Positions 5,446 through 29,685 of a stretch of DNA of 64,000 bases are shown piece after piece (positions within the stretch are counted from its first letter, which is position 1; each line of letters begins with the position of its first letter). The position numbers were made by a program, and so were the translations under genes. This stretch comes from an uncultured Lentisphaeraceae bacterium (GTDB taxonomy: Bacteria > Verrucomicrobiota > Kiritimatiellia > RFP12 > UBA1067), in NCBI GenBank assembly GCA_964567665.1, contig CAZMNN010000009.1, positions 902 through 64,901 of the forward strand, given 5' to 3'. The notes below the pieces were generated by a model. That model was not told where the DNA came from. It searched no databases and worked only from the letters and a program-made list of their open reading frames with translations.

Positions 5446-6363
5446 ATGATGGAGAAGTGGGTTGATCTGCAGGTGAACGGGTACGGCGGCGTGGATTTCA
5501 ACGCTCCCGGACTTACGGTTGCGCAGGTGATGGCTGTCACAGAGCGTCTTGAGCAGGATGGTACGCACGGCTATCTGCCTACGATAATCACAGGCAATCC
5601 TGAGACGTCGGTGCAGACTCTGCGTACGATAGCGCAGGCGCGCCGGGAAAGCGCCAGATGCGAGCGCAACATCCTTGGCATCCACCTTGAAGGGCCGTTC
5701 ATATCTGCGGAGCCTGGAGCCGTCGGAACGCACCCGATCGAGTGGGTGGCGAAGCCGTCCGTTGAACTCTTCGGACGTCTCCAGGACGCCAGCGGCGGCA
5801 TTGTGCGGATAGTCACCGTCGCGGCGGAGATACCGGGGATGTCTGAGTTCGTGAAGCGACTTTCGTCCGAGGGTATCGTTGTCTCCCTTGGACATCAGAT
5901 GGCCGCGACACCGGAGGATGTAGCCCCGTGCATCGAGGCCGGCGCAAAGGCGTTCACGCATCTCGGAAACGGCATCCCCAACATGATTCCCCGCCACAGC
6001 AACATCATATTCACGGCTCTTGCCGAGGATCGCGCCAGCGTCATGTTCATTCCCGACGGACATCATCTGCCGGACGCGATGTTGAAGGTCTACACTCGCG
6101 CTGTGCCGCTCAAGCGGCTCATCGCGGTATCGGATGCCCAGTACCCGGCCGGGATGCCGCCGGGCGAATATGATGTCTGCGGTGCCCACGCCAGGCTTGA
6201 GCCGAACGGCCTTCTGTGGAATCCGGCGCGGAACTGTCTTGTGGGCGCCACAACGCCCATGGCGGCCATGATGCGGCTTCTTCGCGACCGCATCGGTCTT
6301 ACCATGGATGAATGCATTGCCATTGGCCGCGAGAATCCGCTGGCGCTCATCGGGATGCGGTAG
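5446..6363 (+). CDS. nagA: N-acetylglucosamine-6-phosphate deacetylase-like amidohydrolase, TIM-barrel core only
   Basis: VDLQVNGYGGVDFN, YLPTIITG, LGIHLEGPF and GTHP align with E. coli NagA. The ATG at 5446 has a perfect AAGGAGG 8 nt upstream. The protein lacks both the N- and C-terminal beta-sandwich segments. Confidence 0.7.
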   Translation: MMEKWVDLQVNGYGGVDFNAPGLTVAQVMAVTERLEQDGTHGYLPTIITGNPETSVQTLRTIAQARRESARCERNILGIHLEGPFISAEPGAVGTHPIEWVAKPSVELFGRLQDASGGIVRIVTVAAEIPGMSEFVKRLSSEGIVVSLGHQMAATPEDVAPCIEAGAKAFTHLGNGIPNMIPRHSNIIFTALAEDRASVMFIPDGHHLPDAMLKVYTRAVPLKRLIAVSDAQYPAGMPPGEYDVCGAHARLEPNGLLWNPARNCLVGATTPMAAMMRLLRDRIGLTMDECIAIGRENPLALIGMR

Positions 6364-6609
6364 ACTGACTTTCGGTAAACTTCCTTCGACGATGCTCCCA
6401 CGCCAGATCTGCATACGATGTGTGTGGTGGTGGGTATCTCTGCTTGGCGGGTGGTCATCCACACGAGGACGGCGGTCGTCCGTATGGGATGGTGGTGAAA
6501 CTGCGCCGATAGATACCCCCCTGAATGCTTAAGCGTTCTCTGTGTGAGATAGAAACTCCCCAAAATCGAAAAATCCACTCACTACGAACTATTCACTGCC
6601 ATCTGTCAA

Positions 6610-7975
6610 CTGGTTTGTTGTTTTATTTAACGCAAAGAACGCAAAGAGAACGCAGAGGACGCAAAGGTTTTTGGGCTGGGATTGAACGGATTTAAAGGGT
6701 TGGTTTTTGCTTGTCTGCCCGCTACCCGCTACCATCTACGAACTATCAACTGCTCACTGCCAACTGGTTTGCTGTTTTATTTAACGCAAAGGGCGCAAAG
6801 AGAACGCAGAGAACGCAAAGGTTTTGGGATAGGATTGAACGGATTTACAGGGTTGTTTTTTTGTCTGTGCTTTGCGCTACCCACTACTACGAACAGCCAA
6901 CTACGAACAGCCAGCTGGTTTGTTGTTTTATTAACGCAAAGGTCGCAAAGAGAACGCAGAGGGCGCAAAGGTTTTTGGGATAGGATTGAACGGATTAAGG
7001 GATTGGTTTTTGCCTGTGCTTTGCGCTATCCACTACTACGAACAGCCAACTACGAACAGCCAGCTGGTTTGTTGTTTTATTAACGCAAAGGTCGCAAAGA
7101 GAACGCAGAGAACGCAAAGGTTTTTGGGATAGGATTGAACGGATTTACAAGGTTGTTTTTTGCCTGTGCTTTGCGCCACGCCCTACCGAATGGCGAAACA
7201 TCAGCCCGGCTACCGCATGGCGAGGCGTCTGCCCATCCGGCGGAGCGTCTGCCCATCCGGTAGGGCGCGACGTCCCTGTCGCGCCGGGTTGTATAGTGCG
7301 GGCGCGGAAGTTCGTTGCTTCCGCTGCGTGGAGTTCAGGAGTCCCGGAGTTCGTGGAGAATTGTGGAACGCCCTTACGTCTCCAAGCCTCCTAAACTCCC
7401 AGTGGCGAAAGCAGCAACACCCCTACGGCAACTGCTCACTACCAACTGGTTTGTTTTTTTTTATTTAACGCAAAGAACGCAAAGGCTTTGGGATAGTTAA
7501 GGGGTTGTTTTTTGTCTGTGCTTCGCGCAGGGCAGTTTCAGCCGAAAGAACTTTGCGCCTCTGCGTGAGGCATAAACTCCCCAGAATCGAAGAATCCACC
7601 CACTGCCAATTGATTGGTAATGGGTAGAGGACAGATAGGTAAAAAGAATAATCCTATCCAAAAACTTTGCGTTCTTCGCGCCCCTTTGCGCCCTTAGCGT
7701 TAAAATGAAATTACCACTGCCCGCGAACAACTGCCATCTGCTGACTGTTTGTTGTTTTATTTAACGCAAAGAACGCAAAGAGAACGCAGAGGACGCAAAG
7801 GTTTTTGGGGGATAGAATTGAACGGATTTAGGGGGTTGGTTTTTGCCTGTCTGCCCGCCAACAACTGCCATCTGCTAACTGTTTGCATTTTTCAACGCAA
7901 AGAGCGCAAAGAGAACGCAGAGGACGCAAAGGTTTTTGGGATAGGGTTGAACGGATTTAAGGGATTGGTTTTTGT
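6610..7975. repeat. noncoding repeat array of about 8 imperfect ~100-bp cores (~150-bp period) with iteron-like 10-bp subrepeats
   Basis: The core ctggtttgttgttttatttaacgcaaagaacgcaaagagaacgcagaggacgcaaaggtttttgggataggattgaacggatttaaagggttggtttttgc occurs at 6610, 6764, 6914, 7064, in degenerate form at 7446, inverted at 7641-7708, and at 7747 and 7870. No credible CDS is present. Confidence 0.85.
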
Positions 7976-8080
7976 CAGTGCATCCGCCCATATGGTATAA
8001 TTCATGGATATTCATTTTCAAGAAAAGCATGGTCGGAAAATGCAGAGTAGAATGTTCATAAAGGCTGGAGCGGCTGCGCA

Positions 8081-11000
8081 GTGTACCTGAAACAACTTGA
8101 CATAGTCGGCTTCAAGAGTTTCGCCGACAAGACCCGGCTCACGTTCGAGCCGGGAATGATTGCGATCGTCGGTCCGAACGGATGCGGAAAGTCGAACGTG
8201 TCCGATGCGATCCGCTGGGTTCTCGGTGAGCAGCGCCCCACGGCACTCCGCTGCACGAAGCTTGCCGACGTGGTCTTCAACGGCACAGACACCCGCAAGC
8301 CGCTTGGGCTTTGCGAAGTCTCGATCATGTTCGCAGACTGCGAGAAGGAGCTTGGCACCGAGTATGACGAGGTGACGGTGACGCGCCGCGTGTACCGCGA
8401 CGGCAGCGGCGAATATTTCATCAACAAGGTGCGGTGCGGACTGAAGGACGTGAAGAGGCTGTTCATGGGGACGGGCATCGGCACGACTTCATATTCAGTG
8501 ATGGCGCAGGGGCAGATCGACCAGATTCTTTCGTCCAAGCCGGAGGACCGGCGGGCGGTATTCGAGGAGGCTGCCGGGATAACCAAGTTCAAGGCAGACC
8601 GCAAAGAGGCGATACGGAAGATAGAGCAGACGGAGCAGAATCTCCTGCGAGAGGCCGACGTGCTCCGCGAAATGAAGCGGCAGATCGGATCTCTGCAGCG
8701 TCAGGTCGGAAAGGCGCAGAAGTACAAGGAGCTTCGCGACGAGGTGCGGGGGCTGGACATCTACGTCTCCCGCAACAAGATACGCACATTCGATCTCGCC
8801 CTTGAGCTGAACGCCTCAAAGCGTGTTGAGACAGACGCCCTGATCGAAGATGCGCTGCGGGCTGTCGCGGATGCCGAGGAGTTCGGCCGTCAACTGCATC
8901 AGGACATACACGCCGTAGAGGAGCGGCTTGGCGCACTTGCGACGGAGGCTGCGGCGGCGGAGGCCGGATATCGCCGTGCGCAGGAGATGATATCCGTAAA
9001 TACGCAGCGCATAGCGGAGTACAGGGCATTCTCCGATCGCGACGGGCGCGAGATCGCCGATGCGAGACGTCTTCTGGAAGAGGCGGAGATGCAGCTTGAG
9101 TCGCTGGAGCAGAAGGCGACGCTCCTTGAGACGGGCGTGGAACGCGCACAGTCTGAGCTTGATGATGCGCAGGCGGCGTTCGACGCATCGCAAAAGGCGA
9201 TAGACGCGCTCAGGTTCGAGCTTCAGAGCGGCAGGTCAGAATCGGCGGCCTGTGACAGGCGGGCGACCGAAGTGCGGGACGCGATAGCGAAGATCGAGTA
9301 CGAGACCCGCGAGGCGATTCTCAAGAAGGAGCGTCTTTCGTCCGAGGCGGCGCAGCTCAAGGAGGCCGTTGCGGCATCGGAGGCGAATCTTGCCGACGTC
9401 ACGGCGAGGCTTGAGGCCGCACAGACGTTGGAGGGCGAACTTTCCGCGTCACTTGACGCAAAGTCGGCGGAGGCCGAGGCGTTCAGGAACGAAGTCGAGG
9501 ACTTGAGGGCCAATTTCGGCAAGATGCAGTCCGAAGCGGCGGCGAAGGAGGCCGAACTCAACTATCTGAACGATGCGCAGGATGCCGCCGCCGCGTTCTC
9601 CGCCGGTGCGCAGGCGCTTCTCGACGGAAAGCTCGGTCTGCCGGCGGATGCCGTGATCGGATCGCTCGCAGACAGGTTCGATGCTCCGGCCGAGTGCAGG
9701 ATTGCGCTTGAGGCGGCATTGCGGAACTGGCTTGACGCCGTTGTCGTGAAGGATGCCGCCGCTGCGGCGTTGGCAGTGGATGCACTTGTGAAGGGCGATG
9801 CCGGCAGCGCGAGGATAGTGTGTCTCGATTCCGGAACAGCGCCGGAGACGCGCAACGCAGAAGCGCAGCCAGGAACGAGACTGATCGATATTGTGCAGGT
9901 GGACGATGCGTTCAGGCAGTCCGCCGAAACGCTCATCGGCAACGTCTATGTGGTTGACGACCGGACGGCGTTGCCGCCGGACGGGCTGATCTTCGTTTCA
10001 AGGGACGGCGTGATCCGGAGGTCTGACGGAATTTTCGAGGTGTGGCAACCGGGGACTGCGGCCGCATCGCCGCTTTCAAGGAAGATGCTCGTCTCCGAGA
10101 CGCAGAAATCGCTGGACGAGCTTCGCCGCAGGATCGAGGCGGGGGAGGCTACGCTTTCCACGGCATCCGAAAAATCCGCAAGGCTATCCGACGAGTTGAG
10201 GAGCATTCAGGAGCGCCTTTCAGAGGCTCGCCGCGCCGCTGCGCAGGCTCAGGGCGAGCATGTGTCGCTTGAAAGGGACGCAAATCAGCTGAAGGCGCGT
10301 CAGGCGAGCGTGTCTGCGGCGCTCAGCGAAACGCTTGCCGCAAATGCGGACAGCGACGCGAGACGTGCGGAACTCTCCGAGGAGCTTGACGCCGTGGTTG
10401 CCAAGAGGGATGCGCTTCTCGATGCGACTGCGCGGAAGCAGGACGAATTGGTTGAACTTGAGACGTCCAACGCCGAGAAGAGCCGTCTTCTCACCGAGAA
10501 GCGCGTCGCCGCAGGGCAGATGGAGAGCGAGCTTGCCTTCACCAGCAGACAGCGGGAGGATGTGGATCGGCGCAAGGGAGAGCTTCTCAAGACCGTGGCC
10601 GGCCGCGAAAGCGGAATCAAGGGGTACGAGGAGTCGATCGCTCGTCTGACAGACGAGACGGTGGAGCTGAAGTCGTCGCTGCAGCCATTGCAGGAGAAGT
10701 TCGCGGAGGTGAGGGCGCGCACCGACGATGAACGCGCAAGGCGCGAAGGGCTTAACGCGGAGCTTGCGAAGTCCGACGCCGAGATTGGCGCGAAGCGGAC
10801 GGCTCTCGATCAGGCGCGTGACACGAAATCGCGGCTTGAGGTCTCCGCCACGGAATCCACCATGCTGCGGCAGAACCTTTACGACCATCTCAGCCAGGAA
10901 TACGGGCTTGACGCCCAGCAGGTGATGCGCGAACCAGATCCGGTCTTCAAGGGCGAACCGCCGCCACCGGAGCAGCTGGAGGCGAAGGTCAACGACATAA

Positions 11001-11641
11001 ACGCCCGAATAGCCGCCCTTGGCCCGGTGAACATGGTTGCCATCGACGAGTTCCGCGAGCTGGAGGAGCGCTACACGAAGGAGAAGGCGCAGGAGGCGGA
11101 TCTGCTCGCCGCCAAGGCTCAGATCCTCGAACTCATCACGGATTTGAACGGGAAGTCCGGGGAGATGTTCAAGGCGACGTTTGAAAAGGCGAACGAGAAC
11201 TTCCAGAAGATGTTCACAAAGCTCTTCAACGGCGGCGAGGCGAGGCTTGTTCTGCTTGAGAACGAGCAGGATCCGCTTGAGTGCGGCATCGACATAATTG
11301 CGCGTCCTCCGGGGAAGCGTCCGCAGAGTGTCACGCTCCTTTCCGGCGGCGAGCGCACCATGACGGCCGTGGCGCTGCTCTTCGCCATCTTCAGGATCAA
11401 GCCTGCTCCGTTCACGATGCTGGACGAACTTGACGCCGCACTTGACGACGCGAACATCGGGCGATTCGTCGATGCGCTCAAGGAGTTCCTCGACCGGTCG
11501 CAGTTCCTCATCATCACGCACAACCAGCACACGATCGCCGGTTCGGATCTTGTATATGGCGTAAGCCAGCAGGAGAAGGGCGTGTCCCGCGTAATATCCA
11601 TGAAGCTTTCGGATATCGGCGTAAAGAAGGTGCAGGATTGA
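8081..11641 (+). CDS. smc: chromosome segregation protein SMC
   Basis: 1186 aa. N-terminal Walker A (GPNGCGKSN), long coiled coils with a hinge, a C-terminal signature motif (LSGGERTMTAVALLFAIF) and Walker B (FTMLDELDAALDD). Confidence 0.95.
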   Translation: MYLKQLDIVGFKSFADKTRLTFEPGMIAIVGPNGCGKSNVSDAIRWVLGEQRPTALRCTKLADVVFNGTDTRKPLGLCEVSIMFADCEKELGTEYDEVTVTRRVYRDGSGEYFINKVRCGLKDVKRLFMGTGIGTTSYSVMAQGQIDQILSSKPEDRRAVFEEAAGITKFKADRKEAIRKIEQTEQNLLREADVLREMKRQIGSLQRQVGKAQKYKELRDEVRGLDIYVSRNKIRTFDLALELNASKRVETDALIEDALRAVADAEEFGRQLHQDIHAVEERLGALATEAAAAEAGYRRAQEMISVNTQRIAEYRAFSDRDGREIADARRLLEEAEMQLESLEQKATLLETGVERAQSELDDAQAAFDASQKAIDALRFELQSGRSESAACDRRATEVRDAIAKIEYETREAILKKERLSSEAAQLKEAVAASEANLADVTARLEAAQTLEGELSASLDAKSAEAEAFRNEVEDLRANFGKMQSEAAAKEAELNYLNDAQDAAAAFSAGAQALLDGKLGLPADAVIGSLADRFDAPAECRIALEAALRNWLDAVVVKDAAAAALAVDALVKGDAGSARIVCLDSGTAPETRNAEAQPGTRLIDIVQVDDAFRQSAETLIGNVYVVDDRTALPPDGLIFVSRDGVIRRSDGIFEVWQPGTAAASPLSRKMLVSETQKSLDELRRRIEAGEATLSTASEKSARLSDELRSIQERLSEARRAAAQAQGEHVSLERDANQLKARQASVSAALSETLAANADSDARRAELSEELDAVVAKRDALLDATARKQDELVELETSNAEKSRLLTEKRVAAGQMESELAFTSRQREDVDRRKGELLKTVAGRESGIKGYEESIARLTDETVELKSSLQPLQEKFAEVRARTDDERARREGLNAELAKSDAEIGAKRTALDQARDTKSRLEVSATESTMLRQNLYDHLSQEYGLDAQQVMREPDPVFKGEPPPPEQLEAKVNDINARIAALGPVNMVAIDEFRELEERYTKEKAQEADLLAAKAQILELITDLNGKSGEMFKATFEKANENFQKMFTKLFNGGEARLVLLENEQDPLECGIDIIARPPGKRPQSVTLLSGGERTMTAVALLFAIFRIKPAPFTMLDELDAALDDANIGRFVDALKEFLDRSQFLIITHNQHTIAGSDLVYGVSQQEKGVSRVISMKLSDIGVKKVQD

Positions 11642-26216: not shown

Positions 26217-26269
26217 CCCAACTCCGAAACTCCCGGTGGCGAAAGCAACAATACCTCTACGGCATCTGT
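26217..26269. repeat. dispersed fragment of the 6.6-8.0 kb repeat family
   Basis: gaaactcccggtggcgaaagcaacaatacctctacggcatctg is about 85% identical to 7393-7435. Nearby, gcgtttttgggctg (26164-26178) resembles core positions 6663-6680. Confidence 0.5.
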
Positions 26270-26436
26270 TCGCAGACGATCTCTTCGAGGGTGTGCAGTG
26301 GACGCGCTCCGCGTTCCTTCAGTCGAATTTTCACTTGGCGCAACGTGAAAACCGCGATGTCGCCCTTTGTGATTTTCTTGCCAGAAAAATCGGGGTATCT
26401 CCAACGATGCACCCCCTTGAAAAAAAAAAACACATT

Positions 26437-26445: not shown

Positions 26446-26493
26446 TGTTGGCACTTAATTGTTGATCACTGATTTAACTCAACGGAGGTGTCC

Positions 26494-29400
26494 ATGACAG
26501 GCAAGGAATCTGTTTCAGCCATGACAGGCAGAGTGTCTGTTTCGACAGGCAGGAAATATGTTTCGGCGGTTTTGCTTCTTTTCGCAATTGCGTCAATGTC
26601 GGCATCGGCGGCCGATGTCGTATGGACGGGGGAAAGTGACAGCGTTTGGACGAATGCCGCAAACTGGGCTGGCGGCGTAGTCCCCTCCGGAGAAGATACG
26701 GCGGTGTTTGCCCCAGCCGGTGATATAGCCGTAAGCGTGAGGGATGGCGACAGGTTCCCGAAGACAATCAAGGTTGCGTCAGGATCGGTCTCGCTCGTCC
26801 TGCATTCCACGACATTTGCCTATCTGTCGTTCGGGAACAATGCGGAGGGAATCATTGATGTCGCCGAGGGCGCTGTGTTCTCGAATGCGTATGCGAGGAT
26901 AGAGAAAAAGAATCTCAGCATAGTCAAGCGAGGCAAGGGCAAATGGGTCAACAGGAATCAGATGGGCTGTGATGGCGACCCATCTTTCAGTCAGCTTGTC
27001 TCCATGAAGGTTGAGGAGGGGACGTTGGAGCTTTCAGGAAGAACCGGCAACATAAAGGCCGCGAAATTTTCCGTGGACGGCGATGCCAGATTCGTCGTTT
27101 CTGAAGGCAGCACCATCACCACCGCCAGTGACGGCGGCGTTTCGCTCGTCATAGACGGCGAGATGGAACTTGTCAATGCGAACACGCTCCGCGTAGCCAC
27201 GATGACAGGCTCAGGGCGAATTGTGGGTCTCGGCAAAGACAACCCAATCAGGTTTGAAAATCCTGACGGATGCAGCGCCTCCGTATCCATTCTCGGGAAT
27301 TGTCCTGTGTATTCCGGGCACGGATCGGTAACGGGTGCAGTGACGGTTGCAGATTTACGTAAGAGCGGCGGCGACATCAGGCTTTCCGCTCCATTCACGA
27401 TTCTGGACGGTGACGCAAGCCTCAATTTCGATTCGTTCCTTTTCTACAGACCTGTTCCGCTTGTGATTGAAGGTGGGCTTATGACAGCCAATCGTGGGCT
27501 TCCGGCCGCTGCAAACAGGTTGAGGTCTGCTCCAATTCCGAATGGTTGTCTCTTAAGGGGTGAAAACGGAAGCATCACGTGTCAAGTGCATGTCGTCCAG
27601 AACGGCGGCACCCTGTATCACGGCGAGTACTGGCGGGATGGGGAAAAACAGCACAACTCGCTTGCGAATCGGTATGACCTGAACGGTGGCACACTTGTGA
27701 TATCGACGGCGCAACGGTTGCGGCCGCACCTGCTGGCCACAACAGAAAGCCCCAGCGTATATTCGCTGAACGGCGGTCGCCTCGCCGTGGATGCCACAAG
27801 GGGTATGATAAGGAACGGAATCTTGAACGAGGCGGACGAAGATTCAGGAAGGACATATATTGAAGTGGGCGAGAAAGGCGGCTCTTTTGGGGGAGCACAT
27901 GTGGATGAGAAGGCTTTGCCGTGGGTGAGGTTCAACTGGCCGATGGTTGCAAAGACAGGCGTTTCCGATGGCGGCATATCCATCGAAGACGGTGTTGAAT
28001 ATGTCTTCTCCAAGCCGGTCGGCATATCCGGTGGCATACGTGTGAATGACGGCGGACTTGCTCTTGATTCCGCCGCCGACACAGAATCTGCTCCGTCCTT
28101 TTTCGGAACGGGGGCGATCACGCTGCACAATGCACCGCTCTCGTTTGTGTCATGCACGGAGGACAAGGGTCTTGAAATCGGCGAACTGCGGTTCGATGGG
28201 GCGGCATATATTCGCCTTCGCCGTGGCGGAATGAACGAGAACGGGATGTCGTGGTCGGCTTCATGCGCCGCGCAGACGCTGACGATCGGTTCAATCGTGC
28301 GCGGCGGCCTGGGTTCCGCTCTGTTCGTGACCGACGGAATATCGTCTTCGCTTGGTGAGACTGGTTCATCGAAGGTGATGGTGACTTCCGTCCCGGACAT
28401 GAGAGCGTCCGGCGTTCTGGACATTCCCATATTTGGCGTACGCCAGTATTCGCTCGACTTCATGACGTACAGTTCAGACGCCGGACTGATTCCATATGCG
28501 GGATATGTTGATGTCGGTGAAGCGACTACGGCGGAGACAATTGCTTCGGCGTCGGACAGCTTCACCATTGCGATCGGCGCAGAGAAGACTGTCGGCGGTT
28601 TCCGCTTCTGCGGAGAGTGGAAGACCGCCTATGTGAACGGACTGCTAAACGTCCGGGGAACGCGGACGATCCTTCTTCAGAACAGGTGCAATCTGATGGG
28701 TGCCGGTACGGTAGACTTTGGGGATGGAGAGGGCCTGATAGTGTTCGGTCCCAGCACAGATATGGCATGGAACTCCACTATATCGGCGTCGATAACCGGC
28801 TCCGGAGGGATCTCGTTCGCTTCAACTCCGGATTGCAACTATGGGCGGCGGCGCATTTCGCTTTCCGGTGCGAACGGCTGGACGGGCGGAACGCGCATCA
28901 ACTCGGTTCGCCTCGAACTGGCGAATGAATCCGCACTTGGCGGCGGCGATGTGATCGTGGGCGGAGGAACGCGCAACGGCGGGCGGTTGGCCTTCAATGC
29001 GCCGGGCGCGACGTTCGACAACAATTTCACCGTTTCCGGAAGCGGTTGCCGCGATACGCACTGGGATGGATTCAGCGGTGGAGCAATGGAGTTCATGGCG
29101 GACACTGCGATTTCGGGTGACGTTGAGCTTGCAGGGCATTCGCGGTGGACGGCTCCGACGCCGAACGTGACGGCTGTCGTGTCCGGTCAGGTTTCCGGCG
29201 ATTCGCTTGAGATAGTCTCCACGAATGTCGCTGCTGCCGGCACAATCAGATTCGACGGATGCAACAGCTATACAGGCGGCACTGAGGTTGTGCGCTCCGT
29301 CTTTGCGCTCAGCAAGGGCGATGGAGCCGGAACCGGGCCGATGCTGCTCGACAATTCGGTTCTTGTGTTCAATAACGTGGATCCGATAACAGTTGAGAAT

Positions 29401-29685
29401 TCAATCGGCGGTACAAACTCTGTGGTGCGGCTTACCGGGCTGGGTGAGGTGGAGCTGTCTGGACTGGATGGCGAACCAAAGGCTTTCACGCTCGATTTGG
29501 CTGCAAGGACGACGGCGATCGGTTCTCTCTCCGGATTCTCGCAGATTACGACCTCCCGCTCCGGCACGACACATTTGCTCGTCGGGGATGGAGACTTCTC
29601 CTTTGCGGGGGCGATTCCGTCCAACGTGCAGCTTCACAGGCGTGGCGAATACAGCGGAACATCGCTGAGGATAATAATCAGGTGA
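26494..29685 (+). CDS. large secreted protein with autotransporter-associated beta-strand repeats (pectin-lyase-like passenger type) and no obvious anchor domain
   Basis: Signal peptide ...AVLLLFAIASMSASA, followed by VVWTGESDSVWTNAANWAGGVVPSGEDTAVF, a hallmark of the ABS-repeat family. About 1063 aa, Gly/Ser/Thr-rich beta-solenoid. Confidence 0.7.
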   Translation: MTGKESVSAMTGRVSVSTGRKYVSAVLLLFAIASMSASAADVVWTGESDSVWTNAANWAGGVVPSGEDTAVFAPAGDIAVSVRDGDRFPKTIKVASGSVSLVLHSTTFAYLSFGNNAEGIIDVAEGAVFSNAYARIEKKNLSIVKRGKGKWVNRNQMGCDGDPSFSQLVSMKVEEGTLELSGRTGNIKAAKFSVDGDARFVVSEGSTITTASDGGVSLVIDGEMELVNANTLRVATMTGSGRIVGLGKDNPIRFENPDGCSASVSILGNCPVYSGHGSVTGAVTVADLRKSGGDIRLSAPFTILDGDASLNFDSFLFYRPVPLVIEGGLMTANRGLPAAANRLRSAPIPNGCLLRGENGSITCQVHVVQNGGTLYHGEYWRDGEKQHNSLANRYDLNGGTLVISTAQRLRPHLLATTESPSVYSLNGGRLAVDATRGMIRNGILNEADEDSGRTYIEVGEKGGSFGGAHVDEKALPWVRFNWPMVAKTGVSDGGISIEDGVEYVFSKPVGISGGIRVNDGGLALDSAADTESAPSFFGTGAITLHNAPLSFVSCTEDKGLEIGELRFDGAAYIRLRRGGMNENGMSWSASCAAQTLTIGSIVRGGLGSALFVTDGISSSLGETGSSKVMVTSVPDMRASGVLDIPIFGVRQYSLDFMTYSSDAGLIPYAGYVDVGEATTAETIASASDSFTIAIGAEKTVGGFRFCGEWKTAYVNGLLNVRGTRTILLQNRCNLMGAGTVDFGDGEGLIVFGPSTDMAWNSTISASITGSGGISFASTPDCNYGRRRISLSGANGWTGGTRINSVRLELANESALGGGDVIVGGGTRNGGRLAFNAPGATFDNNFTVSGSGCRDTHWDGFSGGAMEFMADTAISGDVELAGHSRWTAPTPNVTAVVSGQVSGDSLEIVSTNVAAAGTIRFDGCNSYTGGTEVVRSVFALSKGDGAGTGPMLLDNSVLVFNNVDPITVENSIGGTNSVVRLTGLGEVELSGLDGEPKAFTLDLAARTTAIGSLSGFSQITTSRSGTTHLLVGDGDFSFAGAIPSNVQLHRRGEYSGTSLRIIIR

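What the first reader, a model, noticed from the sequence alone, without database searches (positions are those of the whole stretch)
6364..8080. 1.7-kb gene desert made of a structured ~150-bp repeat array between nagA-like and smc
In a genome where intergenic gaps are typically under 100 bp, this region has no credible ORF and is markedly more AT-rich than its surroundings. It holds about 8 copies of a ~100-bp conserved core (beginning 6610, 6764, 6914, 7064, 7446 degenerate, 7641-7708 inverted, 7747, 7870), separated by ~50-bp segments that are themselves related to one another (...ctacgaac...ctgcNcactgccaa). The first four copies keep an exact 150-154 bp period. The copies are imperfect, at roughly 85-95% identity. 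The possibilities include a cis-acting protein-binding array (centromere-like or origin-like), an array of small RNA genes, or a lineage-specific MITE/satellite family; none can be decided from sequence alone.
Basis: seen in the sequence. Interest (0 to 1): 0.75.

Follow-up and report, generated by a model that had tools for sequence, protein, structure and literature searches.

The report
Amplified heptad-repeat element cluster
A 1.7-kb non-coding gap in a Kiritimatiellia chromosome is a pile-up of short repeated DNA elements built on a seven-base motif (CGCARAG) that turns up in the same arrangement in many bacterial phyla and some phages; it is not RNA genes, a replication origin or a centromere, and the shared motif is unexplained.

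Summary
Window 6364-8080 has no credible gene, 48.8% G+C against 59.9% elsewhere, and six full plus two partial copies of a ~150-bp unit.

"Structured" is not supported. The units fold no better than shuffles and show no covariation. There is no Rfam hit, no promoter or terminator per unit, no DnaA-box cluster, no parS and no skew switch.

The region is a mosaic:
- A units, each carrying four CGCARAG heptads spaced 9-11-9;
- one ~250-bp foldback of that unit;
- a G+C-rich palindromic module;
- two smaller modules.

The same modules join other flanks in other assemblies of this lineage, and all differences between samples lie inside the array.

The heptad arm, with a TTTAAC-like flank, occurs as hairpins or solo arms in at least 120 loci across a dozen or more phyla, and in phages. 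Heptads are kept while spacers drift. In the window array, heptad columns show 0 of 168 changes against 9% elsewhere.

Best reading: an amplified cluster of a REP/BIME-like interspersed family, whose phased heptads are probably sites for an unidentified factor. The array itself is modestly interesting; the cross-phylum motif is the real lead.

The parts
5446..6363 (+). NagA-like gene (305 aa), left flank of the gap
   Evidence: Gene called at this position in the identical contig L121. Homologues are named N-acetylglucosamine-6-phosphate deacetylase in Kiritimatiellia MAGs. No Pfam hit.
6364..6537 (.). Unique 3' flank of the NagA-like gene, not part of the repeats
   Evidence: About 80% conserved up to ~6500 in the 94%-identical relative L168, whose contig then ends. 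No excess folding (z = +0.4).
6538..6588 (+). Module B, copy 1 (CTCTGYGTGAGRYATAAACTCCCCARAATCGAARAATCCAC)
   Evidence: Direct-repeat family D7, 82% identical to 7559-7609. Also present in L167, L170 and L171.
6582..7176 (+). Four tandem A units (A1 6582-6735, A2 6736-6886, A3 6887-7035, A4 7036-7176). Each carries a TTTAAC-flanked arm of four CGCARAG heptads (6631-6666, 6785-6820, 6935-6970, 7084-7119), then a unit-specific ~60 nt (GGGATAGGATTGAACGGATT...) and a decayed reverse arm (..TTTTGCCTGTGCTTTGCGC).
   Evidence: TRF period 149, 3.8 copies. Alignment A1. Heptad spacing 9-11-9 in every unit. No stable fold.
7177..7430 (.). Module C: G+C-rich (63.8%) palindromic insertion. It contains a GTAG-headed REP-like hairpin at 7260-7285 (GTAGGGCGCGAC-gtccct-GTCGCGCC).
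   Evidence: Folds far better than shuffles on both strands (z = -4.1 and -3.9), as a DNA palindrome would. Two copies in L167 at 82-89% identity. The hairpin occurs once in the window.
7388..7437 (+). Module E, a 50-nt sub-repeat at the right end of module C
   Evidence: 86% identical to window 26222-26271 in another intergenic region.
7455..7707 (.). Foldback (hairpin-type) copy of the heptad element. Left arm is TTTAAC + 2 heptads (A5short, 7469-7484). The loop includes module B copy 2 (7559-7609). Right arm is 4 reverse heptads + GTTAAA (A6inv, 7665-7699).
   Evidence: Inverted repeats I2 and I3. Region 7425-7740 folds as one long imperfect palindrome (DNA fold z = -3.0). Same architecture as the cross-phylum hairpins.
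7717..7992 (+). A units A7 (7717-7850, arm 7765-7800) and A8 (7851-7992, arm 7896-7931)
7972..8001 (+). Sigma-70-type promoter-like site for smc (TTGTCA - 18 nt - TG-TATAAT, 11 of 12). Its -35 hexamer lies in the last bases of unit A8.
   Evidence: position read against the sequence. Function not tested.
8081..11641 (+). smc (1186 aa), right flank
   Evidence: Pfam SMC_N and SMC_hinge. The identical protein is found on other contigs.

Best explanation
The gap is an amplified cluster of small non-coding interspersed DNA elements. It resembles a REP/BIME or MITE nest.

Its main component, the A unit, derives from a widely distributed element. The defining part of that element is an arm of four CGCARAG heptads spaced 9, 11 and 9 bp start to start, that is, two heptad pairs about two helical turns apart. 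The arm is preceded by a T-rich TTTAAC-like flank. Elsewhere the arm occurs either as an inverted pair (a hairpin or foldback) or alone.

In this Kiritimatiellia lineage three things happened:
- one solo arm plus ~110 bp of adjoining sequence was duplicated in tandem, presumably by unequal recombination or slippage between units;
- a foldback copy was retained;
- other small palindromic modules (B, C, E) were inserted or co-duplicated.

The same composite was copied to, or recombined with, other loci.

The heptads are most likely phased recognition sites on double-stranded DNA for an unidentified sequence-specific factor. That would explain why they stay intact while everything around them drifts. 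No locus-specific role needs to be assumed; a by-product is that the last unit supplies the -35 hexamer of the smc promoter-like site.

Shown here: the anatomy; the absence of coding or RNA signals; the different flanks in other assemblies; the constraint on the heptads; the cross-phylum distribution.
Inferred: the amplification mechanism; DNA-level protein binding; the lack of a locus-specific function.
For: - Anatomy and repeat statistics.
- There are 33 heptads in 1.7 kb (19 per kb) against 0.8 per kb elsewhere in the window.
- No coding potential.
- No RNA structure or covariation and no Rfam hit.
- No promoter or terminator in each unit.
- The same modules appear with other flanks: next to a tRNA-like 3' end in L167, after a PD-(D/E)XK_9 gene in L170, and before a different right flank in L122.
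- L121 is identical to the window over 7,453 bp; all 23 differences lie in 7454-7846.
- Relatives lack the array at NagA-like loci.
- The TTTnA[AC] flank was not part of the search pattern and is conserved.
- Second arms that were not part of the search pattern reproduce C-G-C-A-R-A-G at 81-100% per position.
- Paired arms are 94% complementary at heptad positions but 53% at spacers.
- Copies within one genome share spacers (57%) far more than copies from different genomes (21%). That pattern fits intragenomic proliferation or homogenisation.
- Hairpin copies avoid divergent promoter regions: 0 of 33.
- Within the window array, heptad columns show 0 of 168 deviations against 40 of 444 in other core columns (binomial P ~1e-7).
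- No transposase is enriched next to the family, as expected for non-autonomous REP-like elements.
Against: - No trans-acting enzyme or binding protein was identified. There is no transposase, integrase or RAYT in the 64-kb window.
- No target-site duplications or clear terminal inverted repeats were found for the A unit; only one heptad is shared between its ends.
- The unit-specific part was not found in JGI metagenomes (7 chance hits), in plasmids or in phages. Dispersal is therefore documented only by a few short contigs of the same or a close lineage, and these could reflect strain rearrangements or assembly ambiguity.
- Strict invariance of the heptads inside a supposedly neutral tandem array argues for ongoing selection or conversion, which fits a functional array as well.
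- The binomial test ignores shared ancestry of the copies.
Confidence: 0.5

Rival explanations
1. The array is a locus-specific functional binding platform. Its ~33 phased heptads, just upstream of smc, would be kept by selection as a high-density landing pad or sponge for a DNA-binding protein. The role could be regulation of smc or local chromosome organisation.
For: - Heptads are invariant in all six full units while other columns vary by 9%.
- Exact 9-11-9 phasing.
- Position directly upstream of the smc promoter-like site, whose -35 lies in the last unit.
- The left 7.4 kb, including units A1-A4, is identical in independent samples.
- Solo arms elsewhere show an orientation bias towards the downstream gene (18 against 5).
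- One solo arm is 100% conserved upstream of pyrF in two Flavobacteriaceae.
Against: - Relatives at 73-86% identity have no such array at NagA-like loci. Loci upstream of smc in relatives could not be fetched.
- Copy number and order differ between assemblies.
- The same composite sits at other, unrelated flanks.
- The six solo arms point away from smc, opposite to the orientation favoured by solo arms in other genomes.
Confidence: 0.2
2. The units are an array of small RNA genes, or one structured non-coding RNA, in the manner of the NsiR1 tandem array in Nostoc.
For: Regular ~150-bp units in one orientation within a non-coding gap. No expression data are available, so transcription cannot be excluded.
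Against: - Units fold no better than shuffled sequence (z from -0.2 to +2.1 on either strand).
- The 13-unit alignment gives a consensus structure of -1.9 kcal/mol with no compensatory pair.
- No Rfam match even at E = 10.
- Two promoter-like sites against 1.6 expected, and neither lies at the start of a unit. One terminator-like site against 2.8 expected, and it lies outside the array.
Confidence: 0.06
3. The region is a replication origin or a canonical ParB/parS-type centromere.
For: An AT-richer non-coding region with many direct repeats, next to smc and 8 kb from gyrA.
Against: - Only one near-consensus DnaA box in the gap, outside the units.
- No parS within 3 mismatches anywhere in the window.
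- Cumulative GC skew rises monotonically through the region.
- No dnaA, dnaN or parAB in the window.
- The heptad arm is dispersed at many sites per genome in other bacteria.
Confidence: 0.03
4. The arrangement is partly an assembly artefact. The repeats are real, but the join NagA-array-smc and the copy number result from collapsing or mis-joining several repeat-bearing loci.
For: - Contigs of the same species mostly end inside the array.
- In one sample, L121 (NagA side) and L170 (PD-(D/E)XK_9 gene, then array, then smc) give different left flanks.
- L122 leaves the array into another right flank.
- All differences between samples are inside the repeats.
Against: - Each half of the array is reproduced at 97-100% identity in two or more independent samples: L123 and L124 to 7091/7110, L121 to 7850, L171 and L170 from 7467/7497 into smc.
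- The L121 tail and the L171 head overlap in a unit variant they share, giving a continuous NagA-to-smc path with one extra A-B-Ainv block.
Confidence: 0.12

Closest known systems
REP elements and BIME clusters (Escherichia coli, Pseudomonas REPINs)
   Same: - Short extragenic, imperfectly palindromic repeats dispersed over the chromosome.
- Often found at 3' ends of genes or between convergent genes.
- Occur singly, as inverted pairs and as mosaic clusters with other short motifs.
- In E. coli, BIMEs are protein-binding sites (gyrase, IHF; established knowledge, not tested here).
- Copies within a genome resemble each other more than copies between genomes.
- No transposase gene adjacent to the copies.
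   Different: - REP sequences differ between species and co-evolve with a RAYT transposase. Here the same heptad is kept across a dozen or more phyla.
- The arm is built from four phased direct heptads, not a single 20-40-nt palindrome.
- Spacers between heptads are only 53% complementary in paired arms.
- The A unit has no GTAG or CGTC head; only module C has one.
- No RAYT was found.
- Here a solo arm was amplified as a 150-bp tandem repeat.
Modular MITE-like repeats such as pneumococcal BOX elements, Correia, ERIC and RUP
   Same: - Non-coding and non-autonomous, 100-300 bp.
- Modular, with variable numbers of internal subunits.
- Intergenic, and can contribute promoter elements to neighbouring genes.
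   Different: - No terminal inverted repeats beyond one heptad, and no target-site duplication detected.
- No related autonomous IS.
- Those families are restricted to a genus or family, whereas the heptad arm is cross-phylum.
Arrays of short phased protein-binding repeats: plasmid iterons, and the heptad arrays bound by the omega repressor/centromere protein of pSM19035
   Same: - Multiple 7-bp units in direct and inverted orientation.
- Periodicity close to the DNA helical repeat.
- Sequence rather than pairing is conserved.
- The ~20-21-bp double period resembles iteron spacing.
   Different: - Those arrays sit at one or a few sites on a replicon, next to the gene of their binding protein. 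The heptad arms here are scattered in core-gene neighbourhoods with no linked regulator.
- The omega heptads are contiguous with a 7-bp period, not 9 to 11 bp.
- No binding protein is known here.
Tandem small-RNA gene arrays (for example NsiR1 in Nostoc)
   Same: A tandem array of ~100-150-bp units in one orientation inside an intergenic region.
   Different: Each NsiR1 unit has its own promoter and terminator hairpin. The units here have neither, and they have no conserved fold.

Membership tests
REP / BIME | Unit is a 20-40-nt imperfect palindrome able to form a stable stem-loop | tested here: not met
   A units fold no better than shuffles. Only the composite 7425-7740 and module C are palindromic.
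REP / BIME | Conserved GTAG or CGTC tetranucleotide head next to the palindrome | tested here: not met
   Absent from the A unit and from the cross-phylum arm, whose flank is TTTnA[AC]. Present only in one hairpin of module C (7260-7285).
REP / BIME | Many extragenic copies dispersed in the same genome | tested here: inconclusive
   Only the 64-kb window and a few short contigs of this lineage could be read. At least three different flank contexts were seen. There is no other copy in the window. In other carrier genomes, several contigs per genome carry arms.
REP / BIME | A cognate RAYT (Y1 transposase) gene in the genome | not testable with these tools
   None in the window and none enriched near 46 family loci. 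The whole genome was not available.
MITE | Terminal inverted repeats and target-site duplication | tested here: not met
   The ends of the A unit share only one heptad (alignment A1). No direct repeats flank the units. The TTTAAC...GTTAAA flanks are palindromic and belong to the arm.
MITE | Sequence relationship to the ends of an autonomous IS | tested here: inconclusive
   No match in plasmids or phages. No transposase next to family members. No IS database was available.
Small-RNA gene array / Rfam family | Match to a curated covariance model, or a conserved fold with covariation | tested here: not met
   No Rfam hit in the window. For 8 family loci searched, only chance microRNA-precursor matches far below their gathering scores. 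No covarying pair.
Small-RNA gene array / Rfam family | Promoter and terminator in each unit | tested here: not met
   Promoter-like and terminator-like sites are at or below the shuffled expectation, and none is unit-phased. The scan covers only sigma-70-type promoters and intrinsic terminators.
Chromosomal origin (oriC) | Cluster of DnaA boxes, GC-skew switch, and dnaA/dnaN neighbourhood | tested here: not met
   One near-consensus DnaA box in the gap. Monotonic cumulative skew. Neighbours are RF2, thiamin pyrophosphokinase, NagA-like and SMC.
ParB/parS centromere | TGTTNCACGTGAAACA-like palindrome | tested here: not met
   No match with up to 3 mismatches in the window.
CRISPR array | Short identical repeats separated by unique spacers | tested here: not met
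   The segments between the cores are themselves repeated (families D3 and D5), and the period is ~150 bp.
Cross-phylum CGCARAG heptad-arm family (defined here) | Four CGCARAG heptads spaced 9, then 9 to 12, then 9 bp | tested here: met
   All six full units have spacing 9-11-9. This feature was used to define the search pattern, so it is not an independent test.
Cross-phylum CGCARAG heptad-arm family (defined here) | T-rich TTTnA[AC] flank immediately 5' of the first heptad | tested here: met
   The window units read TTTATTTAAC or TTATTAAC before the first heptad. The flank is conserved in about 75% of 136 arms although it was not part of the pattern.
Cross-phylum CGCARAG heptad-arm family (defined here) | Frequent inverted partner arm forming TTTAAC-arm-loop-arm-GTTAAA | tested here: met
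   7455-7707 has this form. The tandem units retain a decayed reverse arm (..TTTTGCCTGTGCTTTGCGC).

The most novel reading that the evidence does not exclude
The TTTAAC-flanked arm of four phased CGCARAG heptads is a cis element not described in the sources searched here. It would be shared by Bacteroidota, Acidobacteriota, Planctomycetota/PVC, Cyanobacteria, Chloroflexota, several proteobacterial classes, other phyla and some phages. An as yet unidentified conserved factor (DNA- or RNA-binding) would recognise it. It would act in gene-boundary functions: hairpin pairs at 3' ends of genes, and solo arms just upstream of start codons. On this reading the Kiritimatiellia array is a 33-site amplification of that element next to smc.
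Probability: 0.3. Interest if true: 0.8.

Novelty: new variant of a known kind. Interest (0 to 1): 0.5.

Why it matters
Taken alone, the array is a local curiosity. It is a recombination-prone repeat nest that breaks metagenome assemblies and happens to supply part of the smc promoter-like site.

What would matter is the motif it is built from. A 7-nt word with fixed phasing and a conserved flank is kept intact across a dozen or more phyla while its spacers track each genome's base composition. It is absent from Rfam and from the searched literature.

If a conserved factor reads this word, that would point to a shared layer of bacterial gene-boundary or chromosome biology, or to an unusually broad-host mobile element family. 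It could be tested directly in culturable carriers such as Flavobacterium, Pedobacter and Ramlibacter.

Tried and rejected
- **Rfam.** Searched on the region at E up to 10, on the whole window at gathering thresholds, and on 8 family loci. Only chance microRNA-type hairpin matches appeared.
- **RNA folding.** Folded six units on the + strand and two on the - strand, and ran alifold on 13 units. No signal.
- **Origin and centromere.** DnaA-box, parS and skew tests were negative.
- **Synteny.** NagA-like homologues at 86%, 80% and 73% identity have different neighbours and no array. The 94% relative keeps synteny, but its contig ends before the repeats.
- **Unit-specific 20-mer scan of JGI metagenomes.** Seven chance hits only.
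- **Translated-ORF trick to find more copies.** Queries were ORFs from the A units and from module C. The only hit was P0121 on L167.
- **BLAST against plasmids and phages.** No match.
- **Five literature searches** with the heptad, 16-mers and concept words. Nothing relevant.
- **Does the TAA/TGA in the flank serve as the stop codon of the upstream gene?** Only 8 of 122 arms do this, so it is not general.
- **Do genes downstream of solo arms form one regulon?** They are diverse housekeeping genes, including trpS, pyrF, accC and an E2 acyltransferase.
- **Transposase enrichment around family loci.** None among 143 neighbouring ORFs; the two further batches were not run.
- **Resemblances considered from memory and dropped as untestable or as coincidences of 6-9 nt:** Bacteroidetes -33/-7 promoter motifs, boxA, the PurR box, 16S rRNA positions 968-985, integron attC core sites, the pMV158 nick site, and the mycobacteriophage SAS.
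Full report
**Observation.** The repeat array is real.
- Tandem Repeats Finder reports 6607-7176 as 3.8 copies of a 149-bp unit at 88% identity.
- The repeat finder places six ~111-nt cores with spacings of 154, 150 and 149, plus two more near 7758 and 7887. It also finds a short copy near 7429-7530 and an inverted copy near 7640-7705.
- Core identities are 79-95%.
- The gap has 48.8% G+C against 59.9% for the rest of the window.
- Other intergenic gaps are mostly under 100 bp and never above ~284 bp.
- The longest ORF is 133 aa. The two longest ORFs have no homologue among 5.8 billion proteins except a spurious ORF on a paralogous repeat locus.
- Unit lengths are not multiples of three.
- The flanks are an NagA-like gene and smc.
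- The organism is an uncultured Kiritimatiellia (PVC group), judged from the names given to the closest homologues.

**Anatomy.** The gap is a mosaic, not a uniform array.
- *A unit* (~150 bp; A1-A4 at 6582-7176, A7-A8 at 7717-7992). It starts with a T-rich TTTAAC flank and an arm of four heptads, CGCAAAG-nn-CGCAAAG-agaa-CGCAGAG-nn-CGCAAAG. The start-to-start spacing is 9-11-9 in every unit. About 60 unit-specific bases follow (GGGATAGGATTGAACGGATT...), then a decayed reverse arm (TTTTGCCTGTGCTTTGCGC).
- *Foldback* (7455-7707). A left arm with two heptads and a right arm with four reverse heptads plus GTTAAA enclose ~170 nt that include module B.
- *Module C* (7177-7430). This is a G+C-rich palindromic insertion that folds strongly on both strands (z = -4.1 and -3.9). 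It contains a GTAG-headed REP-like hairpin.
- *Module E* (7388-7437). It recurs at window 26222-26271.
- In total the gap holds 33 heptads, 19 per kb against 0.8 per kb elsewhere.
- A sigma-70-type promoter-like site (TTGTCA-18-TATAAT with TG) lies at 7972-8001. Its -35 hexamer sits inside the last unit, 80 nt before the smc start.

**What it is not.**
- The units are not structured RNAs. Eight folds give z-scores from -0.2 to +2.1. A 13-unit alignment yields a consensus of -1.9 kcal/mol with no compensatory pair. Rfam finds nothing.
- There are no unit-phased promoter-like or terminator-like sites.
- It is not an origin or a parS centromere. The gap has one near-DnaA box and no parS, and the cumulative skew is monotonic.
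- The 64-kb window is ordinary core chromosome (RmuC, RF2, gyrA, IF-2, guaA and others) with no transposase, integrase or RAYT.

**Behaviour in other assemblies.**
- The same species occurs in several ENA and Logan assemblies, and most of its contigs end inside the array.
- L121 is identical to the window for 7,453 bp. All 23 differences then fall in 7454-7846.
- L122 carries extra A-B-Ainv blocks and leaves the array into a different right flank.
- L170, from the same sample as L121, has a PD-(D/E)XK_9 gene fragment followed by an A unit, then B, Ainv, A7, A8 and smc.
- L167 starts with a tRNA-like 3' end and continues with A, C, A, C, A, B, Ainv, A, B at 82-89% identity to the window.
- The modules therefore exist in at least three flank contexts. 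Whether these are separate loci, strain rearrangements or assembly ambiguity cannot be settled with short-read contigs.
- Relatives at 86%, 80% and 73% identity have the NagA-like gene in other neighbourhoods with small gaps and no heptad arms.
- The 94% relative keeps synteny and the unique flank 6364-6500, but its contig stops there.
- The unit-specific part was not found in JGI metagenomes, plasmids or phages.

**The unexpected part: a cross-phylum family.** I scanned one genome per species for CGCARAG-nn-CGCARAG-n(2-5)-CGCARAG-nn-CGCARAG.
- The loci come from Bacteroidota, Acidobacteriota, Planctomycetota, Lentisphaerota, Cyanobacteria, Chloroflexota, Ignavibacteriota, alpha-, beta-, gamma- and delta-proteobacteria, Bdellovibrionota, Spirochaetota and others.
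- By my own estimate (not a tool result), about 0.001 chance matches to this pattern are expected in 596 Gb.
- Several features outside the pattern are shared:
  - The 5' flank is TTT[AT]A[AC] in about three quarters of arms.
  - About 60% of arms have an inverted partner, giving TTTAAC-arm-loop(8-148 nt)-arm-GTTAAA.
  - Partner arms, which were not used in the search, reproduce C-G-C-A-R-A-G at 96, 96, 98, 81, 100, 100 and 98%.
- Paired arms are 94% complementary at heptad positions but only 53% at spacers. The word, more than the stem, is what is conserved.
- By inspection, spacers follow the host's base composition: T-rich in Flavobacterium, G/C-rich in Ramlibacter and Acidobacteria.
- Copies on different contigs of one genome share 57% of spacer positions, against 21% between genomes. 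This pattern is typical of a family that proliferates or is homogenised within genomes.
- Eleven or so of the 120 8-kb loci contain a second independent copy. That suggests tens of copies per carrier genome; this is a rough inference.
- Hairpin copies lie between tandem or convergent genes and never between divergent ones (0 of 33).
- Solo arms are often 12-45 nt upstream of a start codon, in the orientation CTTTGCG...GTTAAA-ATG (18 against 5).
- One solo arm is 100% conserved upstream of pyrF in two Flavobacteriaceae whose flanks are ~83% identical.
- Neighbouring genes are ordinary housekeeping genes with no transposase enrichment.
- Two bona fide phage regions (portal and terminase identified) carry three arms each within 11 kb.
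- Rfam has no family for the hairpin. Five full-text searches found no description. This does not prove that none exists.

**Constraint inside the window array.** In the six full units, heptad columns show 0 deviations in 168 cells. The other core columns show 40 in 444 (9%), giving a binomial P of about 1e-7. The test is not corrected for shared ancestry. Neutral decay of a tandem repeat would not spare the heptads, so they are maintained either by selection or by a copying process that requires them.

**Mechanism.**
- *Shown:* the anatomy; the lack of coding and RNA signals; flank variability; heptad constraint; the cross-phylum distribution.
- *Inferred, preferred reading (0.5):* a REP/BIME-like interspersed DNA family. 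Its phased heptads (two pairs about two helical turns apart) are recognition sites for a sequence-specific factor acting on duplex DNA. In this lineage one solo arm and its neighbourhood were amplified in tandem by unequal recombination, other small palindromic modules joined it, and the composite spread to or recombined with other loci.
- *Why DNA-level recognition is preferred:* solo arms exist without partners, spacers are poorly complementary, the window units do not fold, and the spacing matches the helical repeat.
- *Rivals:* a locus-specific binding platform next to smc (0.2); an assembly artefact affecting contiguity or copy number (0.12); sRNA genes (0.06); an origin or centromere (0.03).

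**Comparison with known systems.** It behaves most like REP/BIME clusters and modular MITE-like repeats such as BOX. It fails their membership tests: there is no single stable palindrome, no GTAG/CGTC head on the A unit, no terminal inverted repeats or target-site duplication, and no RAYT or IS partner was found. The phased heptads in direct and inverted orientation recall iterons and the omega-protein heptad arrays of pSM19035, but those sit at single sites next to their binding-protein gene. I therefore file it as a new variant of a known kind (interspersed extragenic repeats), not as a member of any named family.

**Verdict.** The array is real, non-coding and unusual for this compact genome. 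In itself it is probably amplified repeat DNA without a dedicated function. The lead worth following is the heptad arm shared across phyla. Interest is 0.5 overall. The most novel reading not excluded is a conserved, undescribed cis element read by an unknown factor; I give it a probability of about 0.3 and an interest of about 0.8 if true.

Noticed in passing
L017:7380-7620 and L018:3920-4160: In two Flavobacteriaceae species a solo four-heptad arm is 100% identical (37 nt, spacers included). It sits 15 nt upstream of the pyrF start codon, just after the upstream gene's terminator-like hairpin. The flanks are ~83% identical, and the sequence beyond the hairpin is unalignable. The TTTG spacing in the reverse arm would fit the Bacteroidetes -33/-7 promoter geometry (from memory, not tested).
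   Followed up: partly
L147 (2981-3015, 9175-9212, 10679-10714) and L159 (3186-3221, 7349-7375, 10731-10757): Two genuine phage regions (portal and large terminase by PHROGs) carry three heptad arms each within ~11 kb. That is a much higher density than in the bacterial loci. In L147 one arm fills the junction between the terminase and portal genes, and the TAA of its TTTAAC flank is the terminase stop codon.
   Followed up: partly
L139, L142, L144, L150, L156 (viral contigs of 47-270 kb): Runs of 14-15 consecutive CGCARAG heptads at a 9-nt period in viral contigs, four of which are 170-270 kb. These may be coding tandem repeats rather than members of the arm family.
   Followed up: no
window 26222-26271: A 50-nt copy (86%) of the right end of module C (7388-7437) lies in another intergenic region, downstream of an ABC transporter gene. 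The same sub-module occurs twice in L167.
   Followed up: partly
window 26492-26543: A 27-nt tandem duplication (ATGACAGGCAARGAATCTGTTTCAGCC-like) at the very start of a 1065-aa ORF (26488-29685) that has no Pfam hit. The start codon and the first residues appear to be duplicated.
   Followed up: no
L170:1-561: In sample ERZ27271066 a PD-(D/E)XK_9 (PF08011) gene fragment directly precedes an A unit and the right part of the array leading into smc. The contig ends inside that gene. This gene is not in the 64-kb window. It could mark a strain variant, a third repeat-bearing locus or a mis-join.
   Followed up: partly
L167:1-40: The second repeat-bearing contig begins with a tRNA-like 3' end (..GGTTCGACTCCCCTTATCTCCACCA). 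tRNA 3' ends are a classic integration site for mobile DNA. ARAGORN calls nothing because the gene is cut by the contig end.
   Followed up: partly
L081:600-700 (Ramlibacter cellulosilyticus) and 7 other arms: In 8 of 122 arms the stop codon of a long upstream ORF lies inside the arm's 5' flank (TAA, TGA or TAG). In L081 both flanks of one hairpin hold a stop codon closing a long ORF, one for each of two convergent ORFs.
   Followed up: yes
Even so, close homologues are named N-acetylglucosamine-6-phosphate deacetylase in NCBI records. Its genomic neighbours differ completely between relatives at 86%, 80% and 73% identity.
   Followed up: partly
L010 (labelled Bifidobacterium breve MAG) and L079 (labelled Bordetella parapertussis MAG): These contigs carry heptad arms under organism labels that look implausible. 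In L010 the sequence printed around the arm is visibly AT-rich, which would be odd for Bifidobacterium. They may be mis-binned.
   Followed up: no
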